32,262 nt of DNA from an uncultured Alistipes sp. (GTDB taxonomy: Bacteria; Bacteroidota; Bacteroidia; Bacteroidales; Rikenellaceae). The stretch lies in assembly GCA_964514795.1 (NCBI GenBank), contig CAZESW010000001.1, positions 1 through 32,262 on the forward strand, read 5' to 3'. Both the position numbers and the translations under genes were made by a program. The notes beneath the pieces are model-generated. The model was not told the origin of the DNA and searched no databases. It saw only the letters and a list, made by a program, of their open reading frames with translations. Below, piece by piece: positions 8,238 to 28,893 of the stretch (positions are counted from its first letter, which is position 1; each line of letters begins with the position of its first letter).

Positions 8238-8987
8238 ATGAGTAACAACAAAACCGTTGTCCCTGGAATGGGCAACTCTTTCGGATTTGGAGGTTCGTCG
8301 AATCAGAACGGACAATTTTCTAATAATCAGCAACCTGCGCAAGGATACAATGGAACGCATTTCCCGGGAATGGATGCAGGAGTCCGTGGCGGAACGATGG
8401 CGGCGACTGAAACGCACAAGCCTGTTATGGGATTTTTGTACAGTGTTTCGCGTACGGCTTGCGGCGAATATTGGCCGCTTTACATGGGTCTGAATACGAT
8501 AGGCCGCTCTACCACCTGCTCCGTCCGTCTGTCGGAGGCTACGATTTCGGACAATCATGCCGAAATAGTTATTCGCCAGATGAAAAATCCGGACAGCGTT
8601 CTGGTTTCGATTCAGGATGCCCGTTCGACCTGCGGAACCCTGCTCAACGGAAGCAGCCTCGGATTCGATGCGCAGGAGTGCCATAACGGCGATATTATTA
8701 CTATCGGCGAACATTACGAGTTGTATTTTGTGCTTATAGACACCAAGGCTCTCGGTCTGGATGTCAGAACGGATTTCATCCCGACAGGAGCCGCACTCGG
8801 AGGCGGTCAGATGCCGATGAATCCTATGGGCGGTCCTGCCGGCGTAACTATCCCGTTCGGTCAGTCGCAGACTCCACAGCCGGCTCCGGCTCCGCAGTTT
8901 ACCCAGGTGGCTGGCGGTAATGCGAATGCAGGTTTCCAGCAGCAGCGTTCGAGCTCGACTGTAATTATGCCGGGTTTAAAGAAATAG
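8238..8987 (+). CDS. Cytoplasmic FHA-domain protein with low-complexity flanks
   Basis: NTIGRS...ATISDNHA...DARSTCGTLLNG...NGDIITIG FHA pattern; Gly/Gln/Pro-rich termini; no TM segment. Confidence 0.85.
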   Translation: MSNNKTVVPGMGNSFGFGGSSNQNGQFSNNQQPAQGYNGTHFPGMDAGVRGGTMAATETHKPVMGFLYSVSRTACGEYWPLYMGLNTIGRSTTCSVRLSEATISDNHAEIVIRQMKNPDSVLVSIQDARSTCGTLLNGSSLGFDAQECHNGDIITIGEHYELYFVLIDTKALGLDVRTDFIPTGAALGGGQMPMNPMGGPAGVTIPFGQSQTPQPAPAPQFTQVAGGNANAGFQQQRSSSTVIMPGLKK

Positions 8988-9031
8988 GTAACATACAATC
9001 CGCGAATGCCGGATAGCTGGTAAACTGTTGT

Positions 9032-10012
9032 ATGCAGAATGTTGTAGTAGGGCAGAACTCATCGATTGTTTATCTTTTAGTAAACGGATTCTGGTATTGT
9101 TACGACTCTGCCGGATACACTCTGGGCGATGGCGCAATGGGAGTCGTTTATCTCGGTTTCAGATGCGACAATCAGGACCGGGTGGCGATAAAGAAGGTAA
9201 AAGACGAATACGCTAATAACAGACGGGTCAGAGAGTGTGCACGCAATGAAGCGCTTATGGCGTTCTCGCATCCGAATATCGTCAGGATGCTCGGATATTG
9301 CGAATATGCCGAGGATTATGGACCTATATATATATTAAGCGAATATGTACCGGGTATTACGTTCGAGGATCATGTAAGGATGCGGCTGTCGGTGCTCCCT
9401 GCGAAAGACCGTATTGCCAGGATAGTTTCTGATTTGCGCCCGATATGGTCGGCTTTGCAGTATCTGCATTCCAACGGTGTGGTGCATAAAGATATTAAAC
9501 CGTCCAACCTGATGATAGACAGTATGTCCCGGGTGAAACTGATGGACTTGGGCGTATCCGGGTTGTTCGGCGATTCGTCGGAGCGTATTTTGGAGTTTGT
9601 CGGAACCCCGCAATATGCGGCTCCGGAACAGATTCCGAGTTCGGGGGTCTACGGCGCGATAGATGCGAGAACGGACATTTATGCATTCGGGGTCATGCTT
9701 TACGAACTGATTACAGGCGTCAATCCGTTTGCGGGAGACTCTTATGAAGAAACATTGAGCAACCAGATTCATAAAGAGTTGCCGAATGATAACGTCTTGC
9801 CGCCGGAGTTGTTCAGGATAATCAGAAAGGCAACGGCTAAGAATCCGGATTCGAGATACGGTTCGGTTGCGGAGGTTGATGCGGATATCGTCCGGTTCCT
9901 TAATCCGAAAAGTCCGGACGGCGTGTCGTCGAAGGTCGTAGTTGCGGTTGTCGGTATTATGCTAATATTGCTGTCTGTTGTTGCGGCGGCTTTAATTATA
10001 AGTAGTTTATAG
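9032..10012 (+). CDS. Hanks-type Ser/Thr protein kinase with C-terminal TM anchor
   Basis: GDGAMGVVY, VAIKK, HPNIV, HKDIKPSN, DLG, GTPQYAAPE, DIYAFG; hydrophobic C-terminal helix. Confidence 0.93.
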   Translation: MQNVVVGQNSSIVYLLVNGFWYCYDSAGYTLGDGAMGVVYLGFRCDNQDRVAIKKVKDEYANNRRVRECARNEALMAFSHPNIVRMLGYCEYAEDYGPIYILSEYVPGITFEDHVRMRLSVLPAKDRIARIVSDLRPIWSALQYLHSNGVVHKDIKPSNLMIDSMSRVKLMDLGVSGLFGDSSERILEFVGTPQYAAPEQIPSSGVYGAIDARTDIYAFGVMLYELITGVNPFAGDSYEETLSNQIHKELPNDNVLPPELFRIIRKATAKNPDSRYGSVAEVDADIVRFLNPKSPDGVSSKVVVAVVGIMLILLSVVAAALIISSL

Positions 10013-10987
10013 ATGGAACTCATTAAAACAAAATTTGCGTCGAAAGGCGTTGTCGTATCCCGAATAGGCGGACGGAGCGAGAATCAGGATTGTTACGGTT
10101 TTCGCGATACGCCGCTCGGGCAGGTCGTCGTCGTGTGCGACGGTATGGGCGGAATGCAGGGCGGACGAATCGCCTCGACGATAGCGGTGAACAGCATTAT
10201 CGGTTATCTCGCATCGCAGTCGGAAGATGCCGATGTCTCCGATGCGCTGGTTCAGGCTGTCGGGCATGCCAATGCCGATATTATCAATACGGGTAGCGAA
10301 AATCCCGATTTGTATGGAATGGGAACTACGGTTACCGTATTGATTCTTAACAAAACCTGTGCGACGATAGCGTATGTCGGCGACAGCCGCATATATCAGT
10401 TGCGGGGCAAGAAAAAGGTATTCAGAACATTCGACCACTCCATGGTGTTCGAAATGGTGAAAAGCGGAGTCCTGACCGAGGAGCAGGCGCGTTTGTCGGA
10501 ACAGTCCAATGTTATTTTGAAGGCTTTGGGTGTCTATCAGGAGATTGTTCCCGATATTCACAGGCTGCCATATCTCAAAGGCGACAGATTCGTATTGTGT
10601 TCAGACGGATTCTGGGGTGCGATGCCGGAGAAAAATTTCCTGTCCTATGTGTCGCACAAGACGGACAAGATTGCGAATGTAATCGAACATACGGCAAATG
10701 TGGTCGATAAGATAGGCCGCGACAAGGGTGGAAATCATGATAATCTGACTGCCGCCATTATCGATGTGAAGTGTAATTCATTAATGAAAGTGAAAATGAG
10801 CAAGACTGTTAAATTTATTTTGGCAACGCTTATCCTGCTGTTGGTTTCCAGCGTGGCGTTGAACGTATATTTCATTGTTAAGCAGAGAAATACCGCTCAG
10901 ACCGAGCAGACAGCAGACGCCGGTTCGGCTGCTGCCACGGAAACTGGCGACGGCGCAACGAAATCTGCCGGGGCTCCCGAAGAATAG
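10013..10987 (+). CDS. PP2C/PPM family Ser/Thr phosphatase with C-terminal TM
   Basis: GGRSENQD, VCDGMGG, MGTT, VGDSR, DHS, LCSDG, HDN motifs; TM FILATLILLLVSSVALNVYFIV; starts immediately after the kinase stop codon. Confidence 0.94.
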   Translation: MELIKTKFASKGVVVSRIGGRSENQDCYGFRDTPLGQVVVVCDGMGGMQGGRIASTIAVNSIIGYLASQSEDADVSDALVQAVGHANADIINTGSENPDLYGMGTTVTVLILNKTCATIAYVGDSRIYQLRGKKKVFRTFDHSMVFEMVKSGVLTEEQARLSEQSNVILKALGVYQEIVPDIHRLPYLKGDRFVLCSDGFWGAMPEKNFLSYVSHKTDKIANVIEHTANVVDKIGRDKGGNHDNLTAAIIDVKCNSLMKVKMSKTVKFILATLILLLVSSVALNVYFIVKQRNTAQTEQTADAGSAAATETGDGATKSAGAPEE

Positions 10988-11011
10988 CAAATAATTAAAA
11001 ACAATTTGGAT

Positions 11012-11620
11012 ATGAAAAAATTTCTGACTATCGGTCGCGATACTCAATGCGATATCTGTATCAATGACAGTACGGATGTCGTGAGTCGCAATCATGCAAT
11101 TTTGGAAATCGGTTCGAACGGGAAGTATTTTATTACCGACCAGAGCCGCAACGGAACTTATGTAAACGGCATGAGAATATCGCCGAACGAGAAGGTTCCG
11201 GTAACGCGAAACGATGTCGTATCATTGGCGCACGTAAGGGAGCTCGATTGGTCTCTCGTTCCGAAGAACAACACTGTCGTGCTGTGGGCTGCAATCGCAT
11301 GCGGTGTCGTTGCAGTCGTTGCGGTCGTTGCCCTGCTGCTGCATTTCGGGGTATTCTCCGGCACCGACAGCAACAAAGGCGCTCTTAATCTCGGTGGCGG
11401 CGGTTCTGCCGTGGAGCAGCCCGGTGGCGGCGGTGCGGTAGTCGAAACTCCGGATAACGGCGACAATGCCGAAGACCCCGACAATCAGGCCCAGGAAGAG
11501 ACCAAGCCTGCCGACGAAAAGGAAAATCCGAAACCAGACAAGAAGAAACCGGCGGACGGCAACAAGAAAACGGACGACGGCAAGAAAGACGACAGCGCGG
11601 TTGTCGATGCAATTTACTAA
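11012..11620 (+). CDS. FHA-TM protein with charged low-complexity C-terminal tail
   Basis: TIGRD...VSRNHA...QSRNGTYVNG, then a TM helix and a Gly/Asp/Lys-rich tail. ATG 11012 preferred over TTG 11006. Confidence 0.88.
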   Translation: MKKFLTIGRDTQCDICINDSTDVVSRNHAILEIGSNGKYFITDQSRNGTYVNGMRISPNEKVPVTRNDVVSLAHVRELDWSLVPKNNTVVLWAAIACGVVAVVAVVALLLHFGVFSGTDSNKGALNLGGGGSAVEQPGGGGAVVETPDNGDNAEDPDNQAQEETKPADEKENPKPDKKKPADGNKKTDDGKKDDSAVVDAIY

Positions 11621-11646: not shown

Positions 11647-13092
11647 ATGAGACTCATTTCAATAGGAAGTTCCGCCCAGGCGCAGATTGTGCTGAACAGT
11701 CAGTTTGTCAGCGGATATCATGCAGAATTGTTGCAGCTCGACAATGGCGATATGCTGCTTGTGGACAAGGGCAGCCGCAACGGTACATTCGTTAACGGCA
11801 ACCGTATCGCTCCGGAAAAGGAGGTGTCGGTAACCCGCAACGATACGATTACTATCGCCGACCAGACTCTGGCGTGGTCGAGCATTCCGGTAATGAATAT
11901 TCCCGACAAGAATAATATTAAGGTTATCAAGGGTATAGGTACCCATTACATGAATGCGATTCATGTTTCGGGCAATCAGGTGAGCCGATTCCATGCGACT
12001 GTCAAACAGACGAAGGACGGCAAGTGGTATATCTGCGACCATAGCACCAACGGCACCACGGTGAATGGTGTACGTATTCCGAAAGACCAGTATGTCCGCT
12101 TCAAGAAAGGCGATGCGATTGCCTGTGCGGGCGTAAGTGTTCTGAACCCGGCTACCGGCAGCGGTGGCGACGGCAATATCGTTAAGACATTGAGTATCGC
12201 ACTTTGCGCCTGCCTGCTGATAGGACTCGGTGTATTTGCAGCATTGAAGTTCATTGATTTCCCAGGTTCAAAAATGTCGAATGAAGAGATATATGCCGAG
12301 TATGCGCCATCGACCGTTCTTCTGCATACCGCTTATTATTTCAAGATAACTACGCCTAAATTCGGAACGCAGAGATTTGTCGTGGAAAATGGCAAATTGC
12401 CTTATTATGACGGAAGCAATGCCATGCATGCTCTTGCATCCGGATTCTTTATTTCCGAGGACGGCGTGATTGTTACCAATCTGCATGTCGTCGCTCCGTG
12501 GCTGTTCGGAGAGGACAAGGATGTGCTGGAATATGTTAAGAATCTGTATTATAAAGCGAATTTTTCTACTGCACTCTCCGATATTAAGGTGGAAGGCGCT
12601 ATCGAATATATTGGTGCTGTTCCGAACAATCAGTTTTTCGATTCTACCAATAACATCAAGTTGCGGATTGTTATGCAGAGCGACAAAACGGATATAGATT
12701 TGGCGCTTCTGCAAACGATGAATGGCAAACTGCCTGCCGGTTCGACATACGTTCCGGTAGACAAAATCTGTACGGACAATGTTCCGGTGGGAACTAAATT
12801 GTTTACTATGGGTTTCCCGATTTCGAATTATTTGCAGGACCTGGATGACTTCGAGCGCAGTCATACGAAAGTCTTGCAGGCTACGGGTGCTGCCGGAGTG
12901 ATTACACAAAACAATGACAAATATATATATGGATTCGATGCCGCATCCTATCATGGGGCAAGCGGTTCGCCTATTTTCGATGAACACGGACGTCTGATCG
13001 GTGTTGCACGTGCCGGACTTGTCGTGCAGGGATATAATTTCGGAGTAAAGGCGAGATATCTCAAAAAACTGCTCGAATCCGACCAGGACTAA
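11647..13092 (+). CDS. Tandem FHA-FHA-TM-trypsin-like serine protease
   Basis: Two FHA-like units (VSGYHA/SRNGTFVNG and VSRFHA/STNGTTVNG), a TM helix, then ASGFFIS, TNLHV (His), DIDLALL (Asp) and GASGSP (Ser). Confidence 0.9.
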   Translation: MRLISIGSSAQAQIVLNSQFVSGYHAELLQLDNGDMLLVDKGSRNGTFVNGNRIAPEKEVSVTRNDTITIADQTLAWSSIPVMNIPDKNNIKVIKGIGTHYMNAIHVSGNQVSRFHATVKQTKDGKWYICDHSTNGTTVNGVRIPKDQYVRFKKGDAIACAGVSVLNPATGSGGDGNIVKTLSIALCACLLIGLGVFAALKFIDFPGSKMSNEEIYAEYAPSTVLLHTAYYFKITTPKFGTQRFVVENGKLPYYDGSNAMHALASGFFISEDGVIVTNLHVVAPWLFGEDKDVLEYVKNLYYKANFSTALSDIKVEGAIEYIGAVPNNQFFDSTNNIKLRIVMQSDKTDIDLALLQTMNGKLPAGSTYVPVDKICTDNVPVGTKLFTMGFPISNYLQDLDDFERSHTKVLQATGAAGVITQNNDKYIYGFDAASYHGASGSPIFDEHGRLIGVARAGLVVQGYNFGVKARYLKKLLESDQD

Positions 13093-13116: not shown

Positions 13117-14421
13117 ATGATTAGACATATTGCAACTTGTGTTATGGTGTCGTGTGCGGTCGTTTGTTCGGCGGCGGCACAAAATATCGACAAAGTTTTC
13201 GTGAAGGACGGCTCCGTGTATGAAGGCTATATATCGAGCCAGACTCCCGGCTGCAGGATATCCGTAAAGACGGAGTGCGCGACGCTGTTCGTGAACTCAA
13301 AAGACGTTACCGAACTCGTATATACGACATGCGATGTCAAAGATTTGCCCGAGCGGCTGGGCGACTGGGCAAAAAAGAATCATCCGAACGATAAGACCTT
13401 GAATGTCGCTTCCATGAGAGTGGCGGACAAGTCTTATACGAATGTCGTCGTTTTGGAAACAGGCGTGAGAATCAAGATTCTCTCCTTTGCCGACGACATG
13501 TTCGACTTGGACTGGAAAAACGTCGAGAAGACTGCCAAAACGGAGGAGTGGCTGACGAATACCGCCGGAATAATCGATGTGGTTACGCTGAAAGACGGAA
13601 AACATTTCGTCGGTCATGTGATAGAGCAGATTATCGGTTACGAACTGCGCATTCGGCTGAAATCGGGAGAGGTAAATGCCGTCCGGTTCCCGGATATTCT
13701 GAGTATCCGTTCGGAGCAGACGGATGCCGCCAAATCGCTGTGGGAGCAGCTCGACCTGCTCGACAGAGTGGAGCTTAAAGACGGTACCGCCGTCGAGGGA
13801 TTCATTACTTCGCGTGTGATGGGCCGTCATTTGACGATGATAACCCGGGACAATGCCGTGGAGAAAGAGATTCCGCTGAAAGATGTGGCGAAATACGTCA
13901 AGGTTTACAACGGGCGCAAGAGCCGGAGTGAAGAAAAGTCGGATAAAAAGAGAACCGAGCCGCGTGAGTCGCACAAGCGAAGCAGCAACCGTGATACCGG
14001 GAAGCCGAACGATGCCGAGAACAATGACAGCTCGGAGGTGTATATGAACGGACTTCCGATGACGCTCAACAGCGTAGTGCTGTGCGACGGAAATCTTAAT
14101 GCCGTCAAGAATCCGGTTAAGGATAAGGTGAGCGTCGGAATGGAAATCAAGATTGAGATGCCTGCCGCGTTTAACAATCCGGAACTGAAAATCGTTCGTA
14201 CACAGATGCGTGCCGTCGCGATGGTGAATGCCGGCAACGGAAGCAACGCCGTACCGACATTCAACAAACGGGATATAGATAAATCCTGTATAGGTTTCGG
14301 CATATCCGGTTTGGACAACGGCAATGTGGTGTTGTCGATTGTGATTACCGAGCCGGGAGTCTATGCTGTCGTTCCGGTGTCGGATGACAATAAATGCATC
14401 GTATTCGAGGTAATCAGTTAA
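13117..14421 (+). CDS. Secreted protein with repeated DxVx(L/V)KDG...G modules, function unknown
   Basis: Signal peptide ...SAAA|Q; repeats DKVFVKDGSVYEGYI, DVVTLKDGKHFVGHV and DRVELKDGTAVEGFI. Confidence 0.75.
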   Translation: MIRHIATCVMVSCAVVCSAAAQNIDKVFVKDGSVYEGYISSQTPGCRISVKTECATLFVNSKDVTELVYTTCDVKDLPERLGDWAKKNHPNDKTLNVASMRVADKSYTNVVVLETGVRIKILSFADDMFDLDWKNVEKTAKTEEWLTNTAGIIDVVTLKDGKHFVGHVIEQIIGYELRIRLKSGEVNAVRFPDILSIRSEQTDAAKSLWEQLDLLDRVELKDGTAVEGFITSRVMGRHLTMITRDNAVEKEIPLKDVAKYVKVYNGRKSRSEEKSDKKRTEPRESHKRSSNRDTGKPNDAENNDSSEVYMNGLPMTLNSVVLCDGNLNAVKNPVKDKVSVGMEIKIEMPAAFNNPELKIVRTQMRAVAMVNAGNGSNAVPTFNKRDIDKSCIGFGISGLDNGNVVLSIVITEPGVYAVVPVSDDNKCIVFEVIS

Positions 14422-14441: not shown

Positions 14442-15539
14442 ATGAATATAATAAGAATCATCGGAGATGCCGAACGGCAGCAGGGTGTATATTACGAGTA
14501 TGACAGGGACGGTGCTCCGCTCGGCGAAGGCGGAATGGGCCGTATTTATCAGGGATTCCGCGTAGACGAATTGTCGGGCGGCTTCCGTACTCCTGTGGCG
14601 ATAAAGGCTATTCATGACAATATTTCCAGGGATCCGCAGCTGATAGAACGGGCGATGCGCGAAGCATCCATACAAATCGTTCACGAGAATCTGTTGCGCA
14701 TGTACGGATTTGTTCAGAATGTCGAGTACGACCCCGCACACGACCTCAATCTGATGCGCTACTATATGGTTATGGAGCGGCTGATAGGCGTGAATCTCGA
14801 TCAGATACTCAACGGTGTGGTATATGACCGCTCGGGTTTGGAGGTTCCTTATGCCTGCGAACTCTACCGGATGTATGCCAACGACAGAACCGCGGCTATC
14901 GTCATGGTTATGAAGAGTGTGGTGTCCGGTATCATGGCGTTGCATGACAGAGGGTTCATCCATCGCGATATCGACCCGAGCAATATCATGATTACCATAG
15001 ACAACCGAATCAAGCTGATTGACTTCGGCGTTTGCAAACACATAGATACGATGTTTGCGGAGAAATCGCTCACGCAGGCGGGTTCGTTTATCGGCAAGGT
15101 CAATTATGCGGCACCGGAGCTGGCTTTGGGCGATGTGGCGCATCAGAACCGTACGACGGATATTTATGCGCTGGGAGTGCTGATGTATCAGTTGGCTGTC
15201 GGCAGACTGCCGTTTACGGGTACCAATCAGGAGGTGCTTGCTGCGCATGTGTCCAGAAAAATGCCGGTGAACGATATTCCTAACAAGGATTTGCGCCGCA
15301 TTGTCGAAAAGGCGACCCAGAAAAAACAGGAGAAACGTTACCAGACGGCTGCCGAGCTGCTCGTGGATTTGGAGAAAGTCTCGCGCACGACTACCGGCAG
15401 CGGAACAAGAACGACAAGCGGAGGCGTAACGACTCCGGTACCGCAGGTTGATGATACCGTGAAAAATGTTCTGCTTTGGGTCGGTGTGGCTCTCGGAGGT
15501 TTGTTGATAGGTTTGTTGCTCAAACTCATAGTCGGATAG
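14442..15539 (+). CDS. Second Hanks-type Ser/Thr kinase with C-terminal TM anchor
   Basis: GEGGMGRIY, VAIK, HRDIDPSN, DFG, GKVNYAAPE, DIYALG; Thr-rich linker and terminal TM. Confidence 0.92.
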   Translation: MNIIRIIGDAERQQGVYYEYDRDGAPLGEGGMGRIYQGFRVDELSGGFRTPVAIKAIHDNISRDPQLIERAMREASIQIVHENLLRMYGFVQNVEYDPAHDLNLMRYYMVMERLIGVNLDQILNGVVYDRSGLEVPYACELYRMYANDRTAAIVMVMKSVVSGIMALHDRGFIHRDIDPSNIMITIDNRIKLIDFGVCKHIDTMFAEKSLTQAGSFIGKVNYAAPELALGDVAHQNRTTDIYALGVLMYQLAVGRLPFTGTNQEVLAAHVSRKMPVNDIPNKDLRRIVEKATQKKQEKRYQTAAELLVDLEKVSRTTTGSGTRTTSGGVTTPVPQVDDTVKNVLLWVGVALGGLLIGLLLKLIVG

Positions 15540-17913: not shown

Positions 17914-17915
17914 TT

Positions 17916-18545
17916 ATGAAACGGGCATTTTTAATATTGTTGTCGTTGGCGACGATTCTGCCGTCGCGGGCGCAGATTGTTTCGACGAATCAGGATTTGT
18001 CGTTCGTCTATGTCGCGCATGATGAGAATACACCGGTTCAGGTGCTTATCGGACGTCTGAAAGATACATACAACGATGCGCTGAATTATCCGGAGGAGCG
18101 TGCCGCGATATTTTATCTTCCTAACGGAGAGTTTCCCGTTGTCGTTCGGGTGAATACCGCCAATGATAATCGTGAGGCATTCGGTGAACTCATCAATGAA
18201 TTGCAGACCAAACGGTCGCACGACATAGACCGTTATACCGACATGACACGCATTCAGTCTATATTGGAGGAAAACGACATAGTCGATGATTACGGCAAAC
18301 CGCGTTTCCGTTCCGTAGAGTGGCTCTATTATATCAATTCGACGTTCTGGAATCTGGGCAACCACGAGTATATAATCGCTTCCCTGTTCTGGATTTTCGA
18401 TATGGAGCAGTTGATAAAATCCAAATATCTGCGGGTAAATATTTTTTATAGCGGTGAATACGACGTGATTCCGTTCAACAAAGAACAGCCGTTCGGCGAC
18501 AAGGCGTTGTGCCGTTCGATGAACTTTATCCCGATGCCGTACTAA
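17916..18545 (+). CDS. Secreted hypothetical protein
   Basis: MKRAFLILLSLATILPSRA|Q signal peptide (alternative ATG at 17910 overlaps the upstream stop); in-operon position. Confidence 0.75.
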   Translation: MKRAFLILLSLATILPSRAQIVSTNQDLSFVYVAHDENTPVQVLIGRLKDTYNDALNYPEERAAIFYLPNGEFPVVVRVNTANDNREAFGELINELQTKRSHDIDRYTDMTRIQSILEENDIVDDYGKPRFRSVEWLYYINSTFWNLGNHEYIIASLFWIFDMEQLIKSKYLRVNIFYSGEYDVIPFNKEQPFGDKALCRSMNFIPMPY

Positions 18546-21901: not shown

Positions 21902-23473
21902 ATGAAATTCAACAACATAGCATCAAACGACTATTTCAAGCTTTTCGTCAGACGCGAAGGCAAGGTCGTACTCGGTAAACGGTATTCGAGTCTGTGGCTT
22001 TTGTGCAGCGTGCTGACGACTACGTTCATCGCAATCGCATTCAGCAATGCGAGTCTGGATTATCTGTCTTATAAGATGAACGATCCGTTCATCAACTGGG
22101 TCGATATCAAGAACAATTTCGGCGAAAACGACTTTGTCGGTTTCGAGGAGGCTATCCGCGACGGGGAGATGATGGAGAAATACCATTACAAGAGCTACCA
22201 GACCGACAAGTACTGGTATACGCTTTTCTGTACCCGCGACAAGGACAGCAAACACCTGAAATGCCGCTATTTCGCAGATATAAAAACGCCGCTGGTCGAG
22301 GCTATTATGGCAGACGACAATGTCATAGACGGTGCGCGTATTGCGGAACAGAACATCGACAACAATTCGTTCGGCGTGATTATCACCCAGGATGCGTTGT
22401 TCAATAAACTGGGCTATAAGGAGATTCCGTCGTATGTCTATTACCGTGCCTATTGCGATGAGCAGGCCGCCGAGGAGTTTAGCATCGACCTGGTCGGCGA
22501 TCATTATGCTATGGTTCCGGTGCCGGTTTTGGCTGTGGTCAAGCGCCTGCCGACCAATATGGACATTATCGGAACCAAATTCCTGTATCTGCAAAATCTC
22601 GGACAGTCGCTGAACCTGTACGAGGCAGGTTATCACAGTTCGTTGATATACTATCTGCCGGATAAGATAAACGCAGCGAAATTCATCGCCGATTTGGAGC
22701 GTGCGACGACCGACCGCACGTCGGCATCGTATTATACGCTCTCGGGTGAGGATATGCCGTTGCCACGAATGGTGAATTTCCGTGCCGGTTCGTTCGTCCT
22801 GCTTCAATTCGATTATGACGACGAGGTGGATTTCGCAATCAACAGGCAGATTAACGACGAAATTATCGGCAAATACGGAGATGCCGGAGTTTTCAGGATA
22901 TACGATTACAACGAGACGAGCAGCACCGGTGACGATGACGACTATATCTCCGTCCATTTTACGGATTTGGATATGATTGCGGCTTTCCAGGAGTATGCCA
23001 AGAATTTCAAGATAGACATAGAGATGTCGCAAATCAATGCCAAGGAGAATTTCAACGAGGTGAGCATCATGGCGAATATCCTGTCGTGGACAATGATTGT
23101 GTTCGCTATCGTATGTATCATTATGTTTATCGTAAATCTGTTGCAGTCCTATTTCCAGAAGGTCAAGCGCAATCTCGGAACCTTCAAGGCATTCGGTATC
23201 GGCAACCGCGATTTGATAGGCGTGTATGTGCTGATTATGGTGGCCATGATTCTTGCGGCGATTTCGATTTCGCTGGGTATTTCGTGGTTTGTTCAGGAGT
23301 TGCTGCCGATTGTCGGCTTGCAGAAAGACGGAACGTTCGACTATCTGTCGCTGTGGAGCAGCAAGACGCTTTATTCGCTGCTCGTGATTGTCGCGGCGTC
23401 GGTTACGACCGTATATATCGTTATGAGCAGACTGCTTAAAACTACTCCGGGCGATCTTATTTATGACAGATAG
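21902..23473 (+). CDS. FtsX/MacB-type ABC permease
   Basis: One N-terminal TM, a large periplasmic domain, three C-terminal TMs with the RNLGTFKAFG coupling motif; adjacent to the ATPase. Confidence 0.85.
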   Translation: MKFNNIASNDYFKLFVRREGKVVLGKRYSSLWLLCSVLTTTFIAIAFSNASLDYLSYKMNDPFINWVDIKNNFGENDFVGFEEAIRDGEMMEKYHYKSYQTDKYWYTLFCTRDKDSKHLKCRYFADIKTPLVEAIMADDNVIDGARIAEQNIDNNSFGVIITQDALFNKLGYKEIPSYVYYRAYCDEQAAEEFSIDLVGDHYAMVPVPVLAVVKRLPTNMDIIGTKFLYLQNLGQSLNLYEAGYHSSLIYYLPDKINAAKFIADLERATTDRTSASYYTLSGEDMPLPRMVNFRAGSFVLLQFDYDDEVDFAINRQINDEIIGKYGDAGVFRIYDYNETSSTGDDDDYISVHFTDLDMIAAFQEYAKNFKIDIEMSQINAKENFNEVSIMANILSWTMIVFAIVCIIMFIVNLLQSYFQKVKRNLGTFKAFGIGNRDLIGVYVLIMVAMILAAISISLGISWFVQELLPIVGLQKDGTFDYLSLWSSKTLYSLLVIVAASVTTVYIVMSRLLKTTPGDLIYDR

Positions 23474-23494
23474 AAAATAAAAGAAAATCGATAT

Positions 23495-26464
23495 ATGAAA
23501 AAGATTCTGTTAATAGTTTTTTCGATTGCGGCATTCGCTGCCTGCGACAAAGAGAATCACGATCAGGGTATCATTCCGGGAACTGCCGGTAATGCAATTT
23601 CGATTACCGAGGCTACTATCTCTCCAATCGGTAATGAGGCCGAAAGTGAACGTATTGTATTTACCGTAACGTCGGATGTCCCGTGGAAGATTCAGAACAG
23701 ACCGTCGTGGCTGAACGTCGCTCCGGTCGAGGGAAAAGCCGGAACGACCTCCGTTACGATGTTCGCCGGAATAAATAATCAGTCCGAACCGGTCAGAACG
23801 TGTACGCTTCGGATTGTGGCGTCGGATGGGACGTTCTCGGAACAAATCGAAATCTCTCAGGAGAGACCGTATCTTAGGGTTTCGCGTGATAAAATCGATT
23901 TCACATGGGATCAGTGCGAAACATTTAAGACTGCCCGCGAAACGATAACGATTAGCAGCAATACCGACTGGGAGATTGTCGTATTGCGCAGTAGTTCACA
24001 GTCCTCCGATGTCGCAGTCGCTGCGGAGGACAGCGGTACGCTCGTTGATTGGCTTTCATGTTCCGAACTGCGCGGTTCGGCCGTTCCGGAAGACCATCTG
24101 CTGTATTTCAATCCTGCAATCTATAATATAGAGCGGCAACCAAAATCTCTTGAACTCGAAATCCGCGGAGCGTTGGACAGCTACAAGTTGTCGTTTACTC
24201 AGGCGAATCTGCTTTTTACGGTCGATGTGGCGGATTCCGACGATGATGAACATTGCGAGTTCCCTGCCTGCAACACGAAAGAGGTGAATCTGACTATTGA
24301 GTCCGAACTGAACTGGAAAGTGGACAGCAAGCCGAACTGGGTGAAAGTAACACCGGAAGCAGGCAAGAATATGACGGATGTCCGGTTCGATGTCGATGGA
24401 GCAAATCCGGGTGCGGAGGCGCGTGTCGGCAATCTTGTATTTGTCAGCCAAGCAGGAACTAACCCGCTTCCTCAGCGAGTTATAGAGGTTCGCCAGAAAG
24501 GCTACATGTTCTATGTGCAGCCCGCATCCGTGTCTGTTTCTAATAATGATTTGACCTCCAAGGAGGTATCTCTTGTGTCTTCGGGCAGTTGGGCAATCGA
24601 GTCGTCGAGCGTTCCCGAATGGCTCGACGTTTCGACAATGTCGGGGCTGGGCTCGGAAAGCGGAGTGCCGGTTGCCGTCGCCGCCAAGAATCGGAATCTC
24701 GATTTCACGGACCGTTCGGCAAAGGTCGGGTTCCGCAGTACGCAGCAGGGCAATACCATGCAGCAGGTTTTGGATTTCAAGCAGGACAAGTTTGTTTTCG
24801 ATGCAAGTGTTTCCGAATCGAGTATCGGTACAATTCAAACGACTTCGCATGACCTGACAATTCACAGTTCCGGAGAGTGGGCGATAGATGTTTCGTATGA
24901 CGGATCTCCTGAGGCTGACTGGTTGAATGTCGGACAACTGTCCGGAGAAGGCAATGCTGTGATAAAGTATAATGCAAAGACCGGTAATGCGCTTGATTCC
25001 AATCGAACCGCTACGGTTTCCGTGCGGAGCATAACCCATGAAATGGCGGGAATAACGAATGTGGTGGCGTCGCTGGATATTACTCAGCGCAAGTATACTT
25101 TTGATGTACAGCCTACACCCGATGTGCTGACGCTGGCTTATGGCGCAGTCGATGATAAAACGATAAGCATATATGTCGATTGTTCTGCGAATTGGGAGAT
25201 AGAGTGCCCGAATTGGCTGGTTCCAAGTCAGAAGAGCGGAGCTAATTATGCGACAGTGTCGTTCACGGCGCAGAATAATCTTGATTACGTGGCGCGTAGC
25301 GGTAAACTTATAATTAAGAGTGAGTATCTTGGCGTTAAACGAAGTTTCTCGTTTGATGTGACCCAATCTGCATTCGAGTTTAACAGCGATTCCGTAGAAT
25401 TTGCGAATATCGAAGCTGTGAATGCCGGAGTATATACTGTGAACGTGGTATGTTCCGGAAGCTGGGAACTCCGTGATTATGAGTCGTGGATTGGGGCATC
25501 GGTTACTTCCGGATTCGGAAATGCGACTATTGCTCTTACGCCGCAGGATAATGTAGAAATGAAGACGCGACAATCTGCTTTCTATGTGTACAGCATCCTG
25601 AATGGCGCGAGAAAGAATATTACCATATCTCAGAAACAGTTCGTATTCGATACGCAGAGTGTTGTTATTCCGGAGTTCTCTGCACTTGAACCAAAGCCGG
25701 TGAATGTCGTTCTGGGAGAATCGCTGTCTACATGGACGGTTCAGAACATTCCTTCGTGGGTAACCGTATCTCCATCTTCCGGCAGCGGCTCGACGACACT
25801 TACCGTTACGCCTCGGGAGAATGTGGATACATCGTCCCGTACTGCGACTATAAAAGTCGTAAGCGACAAGAACGCTTCTCTTGTCAAGGAGATTGCCGTT
25901 TCGCAGGCTGCATTCGTGTTCGATACAGCGGCGGTAACGATTCCGGAGTTCGATGTCCTGAATCCTGCATCGGCAGAGGTTGCGATAGGTGATTGCAGTG
26001 CCGGCTGGCGTGTTGTCGGTATTCCTGACTGGGTAACGGTTTCTCCGGATTCTGGCAATGGCGCCGGAACGATAACGGTAACGGCATCGCCGAATCTCAA
26101 TGCTGGTTCCCGCAGCGGTAAATTTTATATTGAGAGCAATAAAAATAGTGCATTGCGCAAGGAAGTTACGGTGTCTCAGAAAGGCTATGTGCTTAATGCC
26201 AGCACATTGAGTATGAATGTACCGGCAGGTGCAGCTACATACCTGGTCGATGTCGATTGCAGCGGTCAATGGAACGCCGAATGCAGCGGCAAATGGGTTC
26301 ATTTGACTGCTGCAAACGGTGCCGGTGCCGGTAAAATAACCTTTACGGTAGATAACAATACCGATTCCACTCCCCGTGAGGCTACGATAGAGATATCGAG
26401 CCTTGACGGCTATGCCGGAACGGTTGCAGTAAAAGTTATTCAGGCTGCCGCTGCGGGGAAATAA
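23495..26464 (+). CDS. Lipoprotein built of about 10 tandem BACON (Ig-like) domains
   Basis: FAA-C lipobox; recurring S..W....P.W..V.P..G.G...N....R.....V.Q pattern about every 90-100 aa. Confidence 0.88.
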   Translation: MKKILLIVFSIAAFAACDKENHDQGIIPGTAGNAISITEATISPIGNEAESERIVFTVTSDVPWKIQNRPSWLNVAPVEGKAGTTSVTMFAGINNQSEPVRTCTLRIVASDGTFSEQIEISQERPYLRVSRDKIDFTWDQCETFKTARETITISSNTDWEIVVLRSSSQSSDVAVAAEDSGTLVDWLSCSELRGSAVPEDHLLYFNPAIYNIERQPKSLELEIRGALDSYKLSFTQANLLFTVDVADSDDDEHCEFPACNTKEVNLTIESELNWKVDSKPNWVKVTPEAGKNMTDVRFDVDGANPGAEARVGNLVFVSQAGTNPLPQRVIEVRQKGYMFYVQPASVSVSNNDLTSKEVSLVSSGSWAIESSSVPEWLDVSTMSGLGSESGVPVAVAAKNRNLDFTDRSAKVGFRSTQQGNTMQQVLDFKQDKFVFDASVSESSIGTIQTTSHDLTIHSSGEWAIDVSYDGSPEADWLNVGQLSGEGNAVIKYNAKTGNALDSNRTATVSVRSITHEMAGITNVVASLDITQRKYTFDVQPTPDVLTLAYGAVDDKTISIYVDCSANWEIECPNWLVPSQKSGANYATVSFTAQNNLDYVARSGKLIIKSEYLGVKRSFSFDVTQSAFEFNSDSVEFANIEAVNAGVYTVNVVCSGSWELRDYESWIGASVTSGFGNATIALTPQDNVEMKTRQSAFYVYSILNGARKNITISQKQFVFDTQSVVIPEFSALEPKPVNVVLGESLSTWTVQNIPSWVTVSPSSGSGSTTLTVTPRENVDTSSRTATIKVVSDKNASLVKEIAVSQAAFVFDTAAVTIPEFDVLNPASAEVAIGDCSAGWRVVGIPDWVTVSPDSGNGAGTITVTASPNLNAGSRSGKFYIESNKNSALRKEVTVSQKGYVLNASTLSMNVPAGAATYLVDVDCSGQWNAECSGKWVHLTAANGAGAGKITFTVDNNTDSTPREATIEISSLDGYAGTVAVKVIQAAAAGK

Positions 26465-26492: not shown

Positions 26493-27518
26493 ATGAGAAC
26501 ATTTTATATAGGAAGAAATCCGGACAACGACATCGTATACAACGACGGTCAGGTCAGCGGGCGTCATGCCGAAATTACGGTCGGGGACGACGGACAGATT
26601 GTTTTTACTGATTACAGTACCAACGGTTCGTATATCAACGGCAATCCGATTCATCATGCGTCGCAGCAGGTGATGTATGGGGACGAAATCGTATTTCCGG
26701 GCGATATCCGGTTCGACTGGAATATGATTATACCGCAGTCGCAGCCGGACGTTATGTCGCAGCAGGTCAATATAATCTATAATCCGGGCATGGCAGATAA
26801 CGGCGGCTTCCCGCCGATTCCTCCCGTGCAGGATTCTCCGTGGCAGCAGTCGCCGAATGCCGGAGGGCTGAATTTCTCGCTTGCATTCAGCGAGGGTTTT
26901 GCGAGCGGTACAAGGAATGTTCTGCGGTTGTTGGCAATGTCGCTGTTGTTTGTGCTGACATGCTGGATTCCTTATATTAATGTCGGAACATTCATTGCCT
27001 TGTCTACACTGCCGGCACAGTATGCGACGGGCAATGCCGTCAATCCGCTGTCGATATTCGACAGCCGTTTCCGCAGGCCGATGGGTAATTTTATGATTTT
27101 GCAGGTGCTGTTTGCAGTGGTTGCTTTCGCATCGGGCTTCTTGGGGTTTATACCTGCCTTGGTGCTCTTCTACTCGTGGAATCTGGCTTCGTTGTTTGTC
27201 GTTGAGAACGGCATGAATCCGTTCGACGCGATGGATGCGTCGCACAAATGCACGTATGGCAGCAAATGGACGATGTTCGCCATTCATTTGGTTTACGTCC
27301 TGTGCGTTGCGCTCGTACTGGCAATAATCATCGGTTTGGCATATATTGTATTGGCCGGCATTGCAGGAGACATCGTAGAATACTATCGGAATATGACGGC
27401 CTGCACTGTCGTTACGGTGATATTCGGTATCTTATTGCTTGTATGCATGCTCTTTGCATCGTCGATAGGCATCGGAATAAACGGCTCGATTTGGCGGCAG
27501 CTTAAACAGATACAATAA
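26493..27518 (+). CDS. FHA domain fused to a multi-pass membrane domain
   Basis: YIGRNPDNDI...VSGRHA...STNGSYING, Pro/Gln linker, then about 5-6 TM helices. Confidence 0.85.
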   Translation: MRTFYIGRNPDNDIVYNDGQVSGRHAEITVGDDGQIVFTDYSTNGSYINGNPIHHASQQVMYGDEIVFPGDIRFDWNMIIPQSQPDVMSQQVNIIYNPGMADNGGFPPIPPVQDSPWQQSPNAGGLNFSLAFSEGFASGTRNVLRLLAMSLLFVLTCWIPYINVGTFIALSTLPAQYATGNAVNPLSIFDSRFRRPMGNFMILQVLFAVVAFASGFLGFIPALVLFYSWNLASLFVVENGMNPFDAMDASHKCTYGSKWTMFAIHLVYVLCVALVLAIIIGLAYIVLAGIAGDIVEYYRNMTACTVVTVIFGILLLVCMLFASSIGIGINGSIWRQLKQIQ

Positions 27519-27565
27519 ACACCACATTTAAATATCATTTTTTTATTAACCAAACTTTTATTATT

Positions 27566-28048
27566 ATGAAAAAATTATTTGTAATCGGAGCATTGGCTGT
27601 ATTGATGTCGTCCTGCTCCACCCACAAGGCAATGGTAAACACGACCCGTGTAAATCATCCGGTTATCGAATCGACTACTATGGCAACTGTCGATGTGGAT
27701 CAAAAGCGTATCACTTATAACTACGTTCCGACCCTCCAGGATACGAAGGCTCTCTCGGAGGCGCAGTTGATTCAGAATGCCATGTATATGGCATTGCAGG
27801 CTAACGGCAACGCCGATGTCCTCGTTAAGGTGAACAGTTTCGTTACTTATAAAAAGGGTCTGTTCGGCAAGCGCATCAAGAGCATATCCATATCCGGATA
27901 CCCTGCACGTTATGTCGATTTCCGTGAACCTTCGGACGACGATTTGAAGCGTGTGTTTGTCTTCAAATATTCCGGCGACAGCACGGAGCATTGCTGCTGT
28001 GATGAAAAACAGTCGTTCCTTTCCCGTCTGTTCGGCGGAAAGAAGTAG
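27566..28048 (+). CDS. Small lipoprotein, function unknown
   Basis: MKKLFVIGALAVLMSS-C lipobox; ADVLV...ISGYPA; no acidic patch after the Cys. Confidence 0.78.
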   Translation: MKKLFVIGALAVLMSSCSTHKAMVNTTRVNHPVIESTTMATVDVDQKRITYNYVPTLQDTKALSEAQLIQNAMYMALQANGNADVLVKVNSFVTYKKGLFGKRIKSISISGYPARYVDFREPSDDDLKRVFVFKYSGDSTEHCCCDEKQSFLSRLFGGKK

Positions 28049-28062
28049 CGAATAAAAGTATC

Positions 28063-28100
28063 GACTCCATTGAGATACAACACTCAATGGAGTCTTTCTT
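28063..28100 (+). terminator. Intra-cluster hairpin/terminator
   Basis: gactccattgag-atacaaca-ctcaatggagtc, 12-bp perfect stem followed by tttctt. Confidence 0.7.
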
Positions 28101-28116
28101 ATCGCCATAATAGCTT

Positions 28117-28893
28117 ATGAGAACAATTTATATAGGCAGAAACGTTTCGAACGATATCGTTCTGGACAGCCTCGTGGTTAGCGACCGTCATGCCGAATTG
28201 GTCATTGACGGCAACAATCGAATGATGCTTGTCGATTACAGCAGAAACGGAACAAGCGTGAACGGCAGACTGCTTTGCAACAACAGATGCGAGGTTTTTG
28301 TTAATGACCGGATAGTGTTTCCCGATGGACACGAACTGGACTGGAGTCAGATTTGTCAGCCTTCGCCCAAGACAATAGTGAATAGGCCGATGACGATGCC
28401 GGCGCCGTTAACCGATGGACCGGTCAATGTGGCGAATCCTGCCAACCACGGTATGGCTCAGAATGTAAATATCGTAATCGGTACGCCTAATCAGAACGGG
28501 AACTCCGGACAGTACACGGGTAATGGCATCCCGAACGCACCGGTTGAATATACCTCCATGTCAATGGGCGATGCAATAAATTCGGTATTCTCTAAGTTCG
28601 CTACATTTAATGGCCGTGCCCGCAGAAGCGAATACTGGTATTGGCAGCTGTTTTATATTCTGATTGCAATTATTCCGTTCTTAGGCTGGTTTGTCTGGCC
28701 GATAGTCGCATTTATTCCGACCCTGGCACTGACCGTTCGCCGGCTCCATGACACGGGAAAGAGCGGATTGCTGCTGCTGTTATTGTTGATACCGTTTGCG
28801 AATTTTATCATAAGCATAATATTTTTTGTCTGGTACTGTACCGACAGCGAGCCCGGAACCAATCAATACGGTCCGAATCCCAAGACAAGATAA
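28117..28893 (+). CDS. FHA domain fused to DUF805 (YhaH-like) membrane domain
   Basis: YIGRNVSNDI...VSDRHA...SRNGTSVNG; DUF805 hallmarks FNGRARRSEYW, VRRLHDTGKSG and GTNQYGPNP. Confidence 0.9.
   Translation: MRTIYIGRNVSNDIVLDSLVVSDRHAELVIDGNNRMMLVDYSRNGTSVNGRLLCNNRCEVFVNDRIVFPDGHELDWSQICQPSPKTIVNRPMTMPAPLTDGPVNVANPANHGMAQNVNIVIGTPNQNGNSGQYTGNGIPNAPVEYTSMSMGDAINSVFSKFATFNGRARRSEYWYWQLFYILIAIIPFLGWFVWPIVAFIPTLALTVRRLHDTGKSGLLLLLLLIPFANFIISIIFFVWYCTDSEPGTNQYGPNPKTR

What the first reader, a model, noticed from the sequence alone, without database searches (positions are those of the whole stretch)
8238..28893. Envelope-spanning kinase/PP2C/FHA system resembling the T6SS threonine-phosphorylation pathway but without a T6SS
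Seen: 17 co-directional genes, several abutting or overlapping (10012/10013, 15539/15542, TAATG at 17095, 21900/21902), encoding 2 kinases, 1 PP2C, 6 FHA domains in 5 proteins, a protease, a vWA protein, an ABC ATPase plus permease, lipoproteins, an OM barrel and a BACON array, predicted to cover cytoplasm to cell surface. Known: the Pseudomonas aeruginosa H1-T6SS activation module comprises PpkA (kinase with periplasmic vWA), PppA (PP2C), Fha1, TagS/TagT (Lol-like ABC) and lipoprotein TagQ. The parts list here parallels it, yet no TssB/C, Hcp, VgrG or ClpV gene is in the window. Inference: a stand-alone contact or envelope-damage sensing system whose outputs are proteolysis and FHA-recruited membrane proteins.
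Basis: partly seen in the sequence, partly recalled or inferred. Interest (0 to 1): 0.85.

Follow-up and report, generated by a model that had tools for sequence, protein, structure and literature searches.

The report
Split PpkA/TssR envelope sensor without T6SS
A 17-gene operon of gut Bacteroidales, mostly in genomes with no type VI secretion gun, encodes a kinase/phosphatase switch and a wall-spanning set of proteins whose centrepiece is related both to the sensor part of the type VI activating kinase PpkA and to the gun-anchoring protein TssR, so it likely senses contact or envelope damage and may resemble the machine from which Bacteroidota built their secretion anchor.

Summary
The 17-gene operon is real and as described. 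The 'vWA protein' (18577-21018) is a full-length homologue of TssR, a subunit of the Bacteroidota T6SS membrane complex (HHalign 99.9%). It is also homologous to the proteobacterial PpkA-type periplasmic module (99.3%), which precedes TagT/TagS-type ABC genes just as here. So part of the parallel to the T6SS phosphorylation pathway is homology, not only analogy. TagQ and TagR are absent, and both kinases end at their membrane helix. The six-gene core (barrel, anchor, vWA, TssR-like, ABC pair) keeps its order in 45 of 51 related loci; the other 6 are cut by contig ends. Only 2 of 50 carrier genomes have TssC or Hcp (background 9 of 400). A folding test supports binding of the TssR-like protein to its membrane-anchored neighbour (0.68, best control 0.15), like TssP-TssR. 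Best reading: a stand-alone split-PpkA envelope sensor (0.45); rival: an assembly machine for a surface rod (0.3). No function was tested. Stand-alone ppkA/tagQRST loci are published for Deltaproteobacteria; I found no paper on the TssR-PpkA link or this Bacteroidota form. The scan had noted this operon on other DNA (e1-4298186).

The parts
8238..8987 (+). g1: soluble FHA protein flanked by low-complexity arms with conserved Thr motifs (KTVVPGM at 5, STVIM at 240); likely a self-locking phospho-switch
   Evidence: PF00498 aa87-157; N-terminal T-x-x-P in 16 of 17 relatives whose N-terminus is present, read from the alignment; the role is inferred
9032..10012 (+). g2: Hanks Ser/Thr kinase with canonical catalytic loop (HKDIKPSN), C-terminal membrane helix, no periplasmic domain; missing from some relatives
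10013..10987 (+). g3: PP2C phosphatase, one membrane helix (271-289), short periplasmic tail
   Evidence: present in 38 of 51 loci
11006..11620 (+). g4: FHA - membrane helix - low-complexity tail (start may be the ATG at 11012)
11647..13092 (+). g5: FHA-FHA - membrane helix - periplasmic trypsin-like protease with His280/Asp/Ser439 triad motifs
   Evidence: both His and Ser motifs matched a strict pattern in 17 of 28 long relatives
13117..14421 (+). g6: secreted protein with short repeated units; travels with the switch rather than the core
   Evidence: only weak hits; found in 42 of 80 kinase-selected metagenome loci, most without the core
14442..15539 (+). g7: Hanks kinase with unusual catalytic loop HRDIDPSN (Asp for Lys), tail-anchored by a GxxxG helix, no periplasmic domain
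15542..17095 (+). g8 (core): signal peptide - NTF2-like domain (about 24-176) - small beta domain - OmpA-type outer-membrane barrel with long loops, C-terminal Phe
   Evidence: AlphaFold pLDDT 90.9; OprF barrel Z 18.5, rmsd 2.3, 131 aligned; NTF2-like Z 14.0, rmsd 2.2, 119 aligned
17095..17913 (+). g9 (core): inner-membrane anchor - Pro/acidic linker - Ig-like domain - C-terminal domain; sits in the slot of a TssP-architecture protein; predicted to bind g11
   Evidence: direct homology to TssP not shown (1.2%)
17910..18545 (+). g10 (core): secreted single vWA-fold protein without a canonical metal site
   Evidence: AlphaFold pLDDT 89.6; top structural matches all vWA, best Z 10.3, rmsd 3.4, 152 aligned; Foldseek E 1.9e-5
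18577..21018 (+). g11 (core): secreted 813-aa homologue of T6SS-iii TssR and of the PpkA-type periplasmic module, with intact metal-binding motif DGTSS (353-357)
21034..21900 (+). g12 (core): LolD/FtsE/MacB-class ABC ATPase with intact motifs; a dedicated clade that follows the TssR-like gene
21902..23473 (+). g13 (core): FtsX/MacB-type four-helix permease with a large periplasmic domain
23495..26464 (+). g14: lipoprotein made of BACON (Ig-fold) repeats, likely a surface rod; replaced in other loci by a large secreted Ig/PKD/BACON-repeat protein upstream of g8
26493..27518 (+). g15: FHA - linker - four-helix membrane domain (accessory; 12 of 51 loci by BLAST)
27566..28048 (+). g16: small lipoprotein of no known family (accessory; 11 of 51 loci); not a TagQ homologue
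28117..28893 (+). g17: FHA - linker - DUF805 membrane domain (accessory; 5 of 51 loci)
28992..29028 (+). 10-bp stem-loop followed by a T run; likely the operon's terminator
   Evidence: read directly from the sequence

Best explanation
This operon is likely a stand-alone, Bacteroidota form of the PpkA/TagT/TagS threonine-phosphorylation envelope sensor, in which the kinase ends at its membrane helix and the related sensor module is a separate secreted protein that is predicted to be held at the inner membrane by its neighbour. Shown: the parts, their conserved order, the homologies of g11, the missing periplasmic domains of the kinases, and the rarity of a T6SS in carrier genomes. Predicted: g11's vWA domain binds the C-terminal domain of the membrane anchor g9. 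Inferred steps: (1) the BACON rod g14 and the barrel g8 report surface contact or outer-membrane disturbance to the periplasm. (2) g11, with the second vWA protein g10, changes shape or clusters through its metal site, and the ABC pair g12/g13 supplies ATP-driven work or resetting, as TagS/TagT are required in Pseudomonas. (3) g9's membrane helix passes this to the GxxxG tail anchor of kinase g7, which dimerises and, with g2, phosphorylates Thr motifs such as those of g1. (4) Phospho-Thr gathers the FHA-tethered membrane proteins g4, g5, g15 and g17 at the site, and the periplasmic protease of g5 acts locally on envelope or surface proteins. (5) PP2C g3 resets the switch.
For: g11 family vs the PpkA-type module: HHalign 99.3%, E 4.3e-20, 559 columns to the last residue; separately vWA 98.8% and C-terminal domain 71% (E 3.6e-5). 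The module occurs fused behind a kinase and membrane helix in P0126 (37% identity over 98% of the stand-alone protein). In a Tistrella T6SS locus it lies in the order PP2C - kinase - module - ABC ATPase - permease - FGE protein. The window has the same module-ATPase-permease order. In GTDB loci, 43 of 43 kinases lying last before the barrel gene end within 7 residues of their membrane helix, and 41 of 43 carry GxxxG, although at least two kinase subfamilies fill the slot. In metagenome loci, 13 of 13 core-linked g7-type kinases lack a periplasmic domain, whereas 15 of 15 T6SS-linked and 48 of 50 complete others have 130 residues or more. g11-g9 complex: score 0.68, best of 3 controls 0.15; the mark was reached by 116 of 157 solved complexes and 2 of 215 mismatched pairs (counts hold only roughly, own alignments); runs agree in at least 95% of contacts; partner pLDDT at least 87. 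No solved TssR or TssP relative was found by sequence. Kinase in 46 of 51 and PP2C in 38 of 51 gut loci. T6SS markers in 2 of 50 carrier genomes vs 9 of 400 background, Fisher p 0.35.
Against: 10 of 11 non-gut relatives of the core have no kinase, PP2C or FHA gene in the same operon within the DNA fetched (three of them lie on short or cut contigs). The switch also stands without the core in most of the 80 kinase-selected metagenome loci. So the coupling is optional. No TagQ or TagR homologue is present, though TagQ/TagR are the activating complex in Pseudomonas (PMC13713981). Permease vs TagS-like: 0.7%. The ATPase tree does not join g12 to TagT (only 4 other ATPases as context). The N-terminal part of g11 matches the PpkA-type module only weakly (2.5%). 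g7's Lys-to-Asp change may lower or abolish activity (the role of that Lys is recalled). GxxxG also occurs in 5 of 15 T6SS-linked and 23 of 53 other kinase helices. The g9-g7 contact, the stimulus and the protease's target were not tested. P. aeruginosa PpkA itself was not fetched.
Confidence: 0.45

Rival explanations
1. The core is first of all a structural machine that exports, anchors or moves a large surface Ig-repeat rod (adhesin). The kinase/FHA/protease switch is an add-on that controls its assembly or release from inside, as phospho-Fha controls T6SS assembly.
For: A large Ig-fold array almost always accompanies the core, in two mutually exclusive forms. One is a secreted Ig/PKD/BACON-repeat protein directly before the barrel gene in 12 of 51 loci (type IX tail hit at E 0.01 or better in 5 of the 12; the rest judged by eye). 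The other is a BACON lipoprotein after the permease in 33 of the 35 other loci that have DNA there. Type IX cargo also precedes the core in G646, G660, G526, G834 and G1015. The core occurs without the switch in 10 of 11 non-gut loci. TssP and TssR are structural subunits in the T6SS (PMC10781749). The ABC pair is of the Lol class, which handles lipoproteins.
Against: Type IX cargo has its own export route (established knowledge), so the ABC pair need not export it. The loss of the kinase's own periplasmic domain exactly where the core is present fits the core acting as input. The homologous module is the kinase's extracellular part in PpkA-type proteins.
Confidence: 0.3
2. A conflict (anti-phage or anti-T6SS) system: sensing leads to kinase and protease activation that arrests growth or kills the cell.
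For: Patchy spread (2 of 250 same-family genomes carry this locus) across several Bacteroidales families; G+C of about 0.49 against 0.54 for the genome; kinase plus trypsin pairs occur in conflict systems (PMC7159879 passages).
Against: PADLOC hits are confined to generic kinase, PP2C, trypsin and ABC domains; 12 of 17 proteins have none. There is no nuclease, NADase, MoxR or STAND gene. The protease faces the periplasm.
Confidence: 0.12
3. An orphan accessory or relic of a type VI system: it serves, or once served, as the membrane anchor or activator of a T6SS encoded elsewhere.
For: g11 is a TssR homologue. Kin of kinase g7 and of a second switch architecture sit at the end of a divergent T6SS in 14 of 80 metagenome loci. 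The 2 carrier genomes with a T6SS have this divergent type, which lacks TssN and a T6SS-type TssR; 2 of 50 vs 2 of 400, p 0.06.
Against: 48 of 50 carriers (completeness not given) and 11 of 11 non-gut carriers of 94-100% completeness have no Hcp match. Two complete genomes with the divergent T6SS lack any TssR-family gene. The genes are intact and conserved. T6SS TssR is a separate clade (support 100) that has lost the metal motif in 11 of 11, against 59 of 63 intact in ABC-linked rows.
Confidence: 0.07

Closest known systems
Proteobacterial threonine-phosphorylation pathway PppA-PpkA-TagT-TagS-TagR-TagQ-Fha1 (P. aeruginosa H1-T6SS; split form in Tistrella pTM1)
   Same: PP2C, membrane Hanks kinase, FHA proteins, and a homologous periplasmic vWA module followed by a Lol/MacB-class ABC ATPase and permease.
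   Different: No TagR or TagQ, no T6SS; kinases end at the membrane; adds a barrel, a membrane anchor, a second vWA, a surface rod, a protease and five FHA proteins; orthology of the ABC pair is unresolved.
T6SS-independent srfABC-ppkA-tagQRST neighbourhood (PMC3608642 passages; bioRxiv 10.64898/2026.09.18.752743 passages; loci L248, L251)
   Same: The same vWA module-ATPase-permease cassette without a T6SS; a Bacteroidales locus in G319 bridges the two, with an FGE protein, three TssR-like genes, the ABC pair, SrfB and SrfC.
   Different: The window has no SrfA/B/C, TagR or TagQ; it has active-looking Hanks kinases, PP2C and FHA readers instead.
Bacteroidota T6SS-iii membrane complex TssNQOPR (PMC10781749: passages and sections 11 and 16 read)
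   Same: Full-length TssR homologue; the gene upstream encodes a membrane-anchored Ig protein predicted to bind it, as TssP binds TssR; in G890 that gene has TssP's TM-PKD-PKD-domain layout and length.
   Different: No TssN, TssO or TssQ; metal motif intact; linked to an ABC pair and a barrel, not to a baseplate; g9-TssP homology not shown directly.
vWA-MoxR ternary conflict systems (PMC7159879 passages)
   Same: vWA, trypsin, kinase and FHA domains occur in both.
   Different: No MoxR AAA+ ATPase, VMAP, iSTAND or effector-fused vWA; the vWA proteins here are secreted.

Membership tests
H1-T6SS threonine-phosphorylation pathway | Membrane Hanks kinase with its own periplasmic vWA module (PpkA) | tested here: not met
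   Both kinases end at their membrane helix; the homologous module is a separate gene four genes downstream. Split forms exist in Proteobacteria.
H1-T6SS threonine-phosphorylation pathway | Homologue of the PpkA-type periplasmic module followed by ABC ATPase and permease | tested here: met
   HHalign 99.3%, 559 columns; order g11-g12-g13. Tested against P0126 and six plasmid proteins, not against P. aeruginosa PpkA itself.
H1-T6SS threonine-phosphorylation pathway | TagT/TagS orthologues | tested here: inconclusive
   Same class (PF00005, PF02687) and slot; permease profiles 0.7%; ATPase tree unresolved, AU p 0.34.
H1-T6SS threonine-phosphorylation pathway | TagR (FGE domain) and TagQ lipoprotein | tested here: not met
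   No FGE hit among the 17 proteins; 9 operon families vs TagQ-like and TagR-like profiles at most 10.5%, over 24 N-terminal columns.
H1-T6SS threonine-phosphorylation pathway | PP2C and FHA proteins | tested here: met
H1-T6SS threonine-phosphorylation pathway | Linked T6SS whose assembly it triggers | tested here: not met
   None in the own genome (73.5% complete); 2 of 50 carriers.
H1-T6SS threonine-phosphorylation pathway | Activation by envelope damage | not testable with these tools
   Needs phosphorylation assays.
T6SS-iii membrane complex | TssR (three-domain) | tested here: met
   Three Pfam domains above cut-off; 99.9%, 668 columns; but a separate clade with an intact metal motif.
T6SS-iii membrane complex | TssP | tested here: inconclusive
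   g9 vs TssP 1.2% whole, C-domain P 0.057. G890's protein in the same slot vs TssP 98.9% over TM+PKD+PKD (PKD pairs are common); its C-domain vs g9's P 3e-4 (best of 17 nulls 0.037) but not vs TssP's. Predicted g9-g11 binding.
T6SS-iii membrane complex | TssN, TssO, TssQ | tested here: not met
   14 families vs TssN/O/Q profiles at most 4.5% (the TssN profile had 2 rows); no TssN in the own genome.
srfABC-linked vWA/ABC/FGE cassette | SrfA, SrfB, SrfC and FGE genes beside the cassette | tested here: not met
   No such Pfam hit in the operon; SrfB, SrfC and FGE are present in relative G319.
vWA-MoxR ternary systems | MoxR AAA+ ATPase plus effector-fused cytoplasmic vWA | tested here: not met
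   The only ATPase is ABC-type; the vWA proteins have signal peptides.

The most novel reading that the evidence does not exclude
TssR, and with it TssP, of the Bacteroidota T6SS membrane complex was taken over from a T6SS-independent trans-envelope machine of this kind, whose TssR-like protein is the detached periplasmic sensor module of the PpkA kinase family. The window holds a living version of that ancestral machine re-coupled to a tail-anchored kinase. The T6SS anchor of Bacteroidota and the 'tit-for-tat' sensor of Pseudomonas would then share one origin.
Probability: 0.5. Interest if true: 0.85.

Novelty: new variant of a known kind. Interest (0 to 1): 0.72.

Why it matters
The paper that defined the Bacteroidota T6SS membrane complex states that its origin is hard to identify because no locus independent of the T6SS encodes this set of genes (PMC10781749, sections 11 and 16). 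This operon family gives a T6SS-free home for TssR and probably TssP. It also ties TssR by homology to the PpkA-type sensor module and its neighbouring ABC pair. The role of TagS/TagT is still undefined in Pseudomonas (PMC13713981); a system that keeps the module and an ABC pair but lacks TagQ, TagR and the gun offers a simpler setting to find it. It also points to an undescribed threonine-phosphorylation circuit in gut and rumen Bacteroidales.

Tried and rejected
g9 as a direct TssP homologue by profile comparison: not significant. g8, g10, g6 and g16 as TssN/O/Q or TagQ/TagR: no match. A dedicated PADLOC defence system: only generic domain hits. Solved structures of TssR or TssP relatives: none by sequence beyond generic PKD domains. 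No NCBIfam family for the TssR-like proteins. No plasmid match for the permease. Direction of co-option from trees: T6SS TssR nests among ABC-linked proteins when rooted on the PpkA-type module, but with support 80-82, a long-branch warning, and monophyly of the ABC-linked group not rejected (AU p 0.175; 28 rows). The first tree (43 of 74 rows, quick search in place of the careful one) has no root. Promoter scan: 3 sites vs 3.3 expected, uninformative. Expression: no RNA holder listed. The ESM Atlas gave no answer for g9 or g10. A type IX tail search of the own genome found nothing, but no control rang. Literature searches with no paper: TssR+FHA+kinase+Bacteroid; TssR+von Willebrand+ABC transporter (46); Alistipes+type VI secretion+threonine kinase+FHA (91); PpkA+vWA+periplasmic+Serratia (92); TssR+PpkA (136). 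The library lacks most subscription papers, and no supplements were read; those of PMC10781749 and PMC7159879 could list such loci.

Full report
OBSERVATION. The window is contig C1 of a 1.82-Mb, 73.5%-complete genome, inferred to be Rikenellaceae from kinship labels and record titles. Between 8238 and 28893 lie 17 intact plus-strand genes with gaps of -4 to +68 nt, closed by a stem-loop and T run at 28992-29028. The own genome has no match to TssD, TssC, TssN or the VgrG OB domain; it is incomplete, so the comparative test below carries the weight.

WHAT THE vWA PROTEIN IS, PART 1. g11 (18577-21018) hits all three Pfam TssR domains above cut-off. Its family aligns with 5 TssR proteins from T6SS loci at 99.9% over 668 columns, and with 11 at 100%. 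TssR is a subunit of the Bacteroidota T6SS membrane complex and binds TssP (PMC10781749, passages). No operon family matched TssN, TssO or TssQ. The vWA metal motif D-x-T/S-x-S is intact in 49 of 51 gut rows and 10 of 12 non-gut rows linked to ABC genes, and in 0 of 11 T6SS TssR. T6SS TssR form one clade with support 100 (43 of 74 rows, quick tree).

PART 2. A distant member (G319) found five proteobacterial plasmid proteins at E 3e-4 to 9e-3. In the three loci fetched, the protein stands directly before an ABC ATPase, an FtsX-type permease and a further gene that is an FGE (TagR-like) protein where annotated or scanned; lipoprotein-like genes follow. Profile comparison with seven such proteins gave 99.3%, E 4.3e-20, 559 columns ending on the shared last motif. 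By parts: vWA 98.8%, C-terminal domain 71.3% (E 3.6e-5), N-terminal part 2.5%, middle none. T6SS TssR itself matched at 96.0% over 290 columns. The same module is fused behind a kinase, membrane helix and proline-rich linker in P0126. In the Tistrella pTM1 T6SS it follows tagF, PP2C and a kinase and precedes ATPase, permease and FGE protein. P. aeruginosa PpkA is described as a membrane kinase with an extracellular vWA domain, and tagT and tagS are PA0073 and PA0072 (PMC3224232 passages); that ppkA is PA0074 is recalled. I did not fetch that protein, so 'PpkA-type module' rests on architecture and gene order. All 7 proteobacterial modules keep the metal motif. Rooted on them, T6SS TssR nests among ABC-linked proteins, but weakly (support 80-82; AU p 0.175). 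Independently of nesting, ABC linkage and the intact motif are shared with the outgroup, which makes the T6SS state the likely derived one (inference).

CONSERVATION. A scan of GTDB with the g11 alignment gave 51 loci, nearly all titled as gut or rumen Bacteroidales; they were selected on g11. The order barrel - g9 - g10 - g11 - ATPase - permease is complete in 45; the other 6 are cut by contig ends and agree as far as they go. A kinase lies within the 10-kb flanks in 46 and a PP2C in 38, in at least three arrangements. The locus is patchy: 3 of 250 same-family genomes matched, one of them a T6SS TssR. Samples of the order and phylum gave 11 more distant carriers, 94-100% complete. All have TssR-like plus an ABC ATPase, and the permease wherever the contig reaches that far; 5 of 7 tested have a g8-like barrel. 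Their ATPases form one clade with g12 (support 99). The profile finds 1,263 clusters at E 1e-30 or better among 50%-identity representatives (this may include T6SS TssR).

T6SS INDEPENDENCE. Of 50 gut carriers tested (L025 left out), 2 have TssC and the same 2 have Hcp; their completeness is not given. Background TssC is 9 of 400 in the order (Fisher p 0.35; kin are not independent). None of the 11 distant carriers has Hcp. The 2 positives have a divergent T6SS without TssN or T6SS-type TssR; so do two complete genomes with no TssR-family gene at all, so that T6SS does not need this operon.

THE SWITCH IS A SEPARATE MODULE. Among the best 80 of 478 metagenome matches to kinase g7, 13 have the barrel gene, 14 have TssF and other T6SS genes, and most of the rest show the switch alone or are too short to tell. 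At the T6SS only part of the switch is present. Core-linked kinases end at their membrane helix (13 of 13). T6SS-linked ones carry 184-217 further residues (15 of 15, counting one locus recognised by its zinc-ribbon-FHA gene), and 48 of 50 complete others carry 130 or more. In the GTDB loci all 43 kinases lying last before the barrel are tail-anchored and 41 have GxxxG, though at least two kinase subfamilies fill the slot. This suggests that the core replaces the kinase's own sensor and acts through the membrane helix (inference). Against an obligatory link, 10 of 11 distant carriers have no switch in the operon.

OTHER CORE PARTS. g8 is NTF2-like domain plus OmpA-type barrel. g10 has a vWA fold. 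g9 is an inner-membrane anchor with an Ig-like and a C-terminal domain. It does not match TssP significantly. In G890 the gene in its slot has TssP's layout and length (98.9% over TM and two PKD domains, which are common), and that protein's C-terminal domain weakly matches g9's (P 3e-4; best of 17 nulls 0.037) but not TssP's. The complex job for g11 (21-813) with g9 (98-272) scored 0.68, best of 3 controls 0.15; the mark was reached by 116 of 157 solved complexes and 2 of 215 mismatched pairs (roughly, as my alignments were used); runs agree in at least 95% of contacts, partner pLDDT at least 87; the interface joins g11 499-568 and g9 204-246. This supports binding and does not show it. A large Ig-fold array accompanies the core in one of two exclusive forms: secreted and upstream of the barrel (12 loci; type IX tail hit in 5), or a BACON lipoprotein after the permease (33 of the 35 other loci with DNA there); L047's upstream protein joins BACON repeats to a type IX tail.

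MECHANISM. Best reading (0.45): a split-PpkA sensor. The surface rod and barrel report contact or damage; g11 and g10, held by g9 and worked by the ABC pair, cluster the tail-anchored kinase; phospho-Thr gathers FHA-tethered membrane proteins and a periplasmic protease; PP2C resets. Only the parts, homologies, topology and co-occurrence are shown; g9-g11 binding is predicted; the rest is inferred by analogy with PMC13713981 (abstract, introduction, section 13 and discussion read), whose activators TagQ and TagR are missing here. Main rival (0.3): the core builds or anchors the surface rod and the switch controls it from inside. Conflict system 0.12; T6SS accessory or relic 0.07.

NOVELTY. T6SS-free ppkA/tagQRST neighbourhoods with srfABC are published for Deltaproteobacteria (PMC3608642 passages), and the vWA/ABC/FGE cassette beside srfABC is noted in a 2026 preprint (passages). 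The general idea of a stand-alone pathway is therefore known. The Bacteroidota form, the TssR-PpkA-module homology and a T6SS-free TssP/TssR-like pair were not found in print (also a 2026 review, PMC13584744, has no occurrence of TssR or vWA, and PMC12607579 passages). The defining paper reports no complete membrane complex outside T6SS genomes and leaves its origin open; this operon has at most two of its five subunits, so it does not contradict that, but it offers a source for them. The operon itself had been noted by this scan in another genome. Verdict: new variant of a known kind, interest 0.72.

Noticed in passing
L088 (G253:C6), L118-L120 (G691:C19), L121-L123 (G492:C65), L090 (G298); metagenome loci L177, L180, L182, L183, L186, L187, L190-L193, L195-L197, L204: A divergent Bacteroidales T6SS (TssC E about 1e-105 to 1e-131 vs about 1e-220 for the usual type) with tssG next to tssK and no TssN or T6SS-type TssR found. 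In G253 and the metagenome loci it ends in a membrane or peptidoglycan-binding protein, a zinc-ribbon-FHA gene and a kinase-FHA gene; most add a g7-type kinase with a helical periplasmic domain and a secreted protein, in some with WG repeats. Its membrane anchor is unexplained.
   Followed up: partly
L206-L246 (many): The switch alone (g1 - long kinase - kinase - PP2C - FHA - FHA/protease - WG-repeat protein - g6) without core or T6SS is the commonest context among the 80 kinase-selected loci.
   Followed up: partly
L091-L092 (G319:C15): Bacteroidales locus with MORN and FGE proteins, a probable barrel, three TssR-like genes, the ABC pair, then SrfB and SrfC: a bridge to proteobacterial srf loci.
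   Followed up: partly
L154 (G890:C1:275600-293300): FHA, PP2C, kinase, large secreted protein, barrel, TssP-architecture protein, two TssR-like genes and the ABC pair in a 100%-complete genome without TssC or Hcp; its TssR-like protein is the weakly supported sister of T6SS TssR.
   Followed up: yes
L047:6986, L050:4245: Two gut TssR-like proteins have lost the metal motif, as T6SS TssR has; L050's genome has the divergent T6SS.
   Followed up: no
L121:1068-7429, L118:7959-8627: ThiF (E1-like), JAB-like and E2-like hits inside divergent T6SS loci.
   Followed up: no
g9 family: 17 of 54 members carry an N-terminal zinc ribbon on the cytoplasmic side of the anchor; some loci have two copies.
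   Followed up: no
The stand-alone PpkA-type vWA module is on 126 plasmid records, 114 of them from Klebsiella.
   Followed up: no
L020, L199: The g1-g3-g4 block is inverted relative to the rest of the operon.
   Followed up: no
window 175-3507, 3730-5318, 5388-7043, 7260-7802: Type I restriction subunit R, two tandem S1/P1 nucleases, a lipoprotein with no Pfam hit, and a carbonic anhydrase whose terminator-like hairpin lies at 7822-7854.
   Followed up: no
window 29041-32260: GH3 glycosidase and an esterase on the minus strand; unrelated to the operon.
   Followed up: no
L016, L023, L043: Record titles name an archaeon, a treponeme and an Eggerthellaceae genome for typical Bacteroidales loci; probably misbinned contigs.
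   Followed up: no
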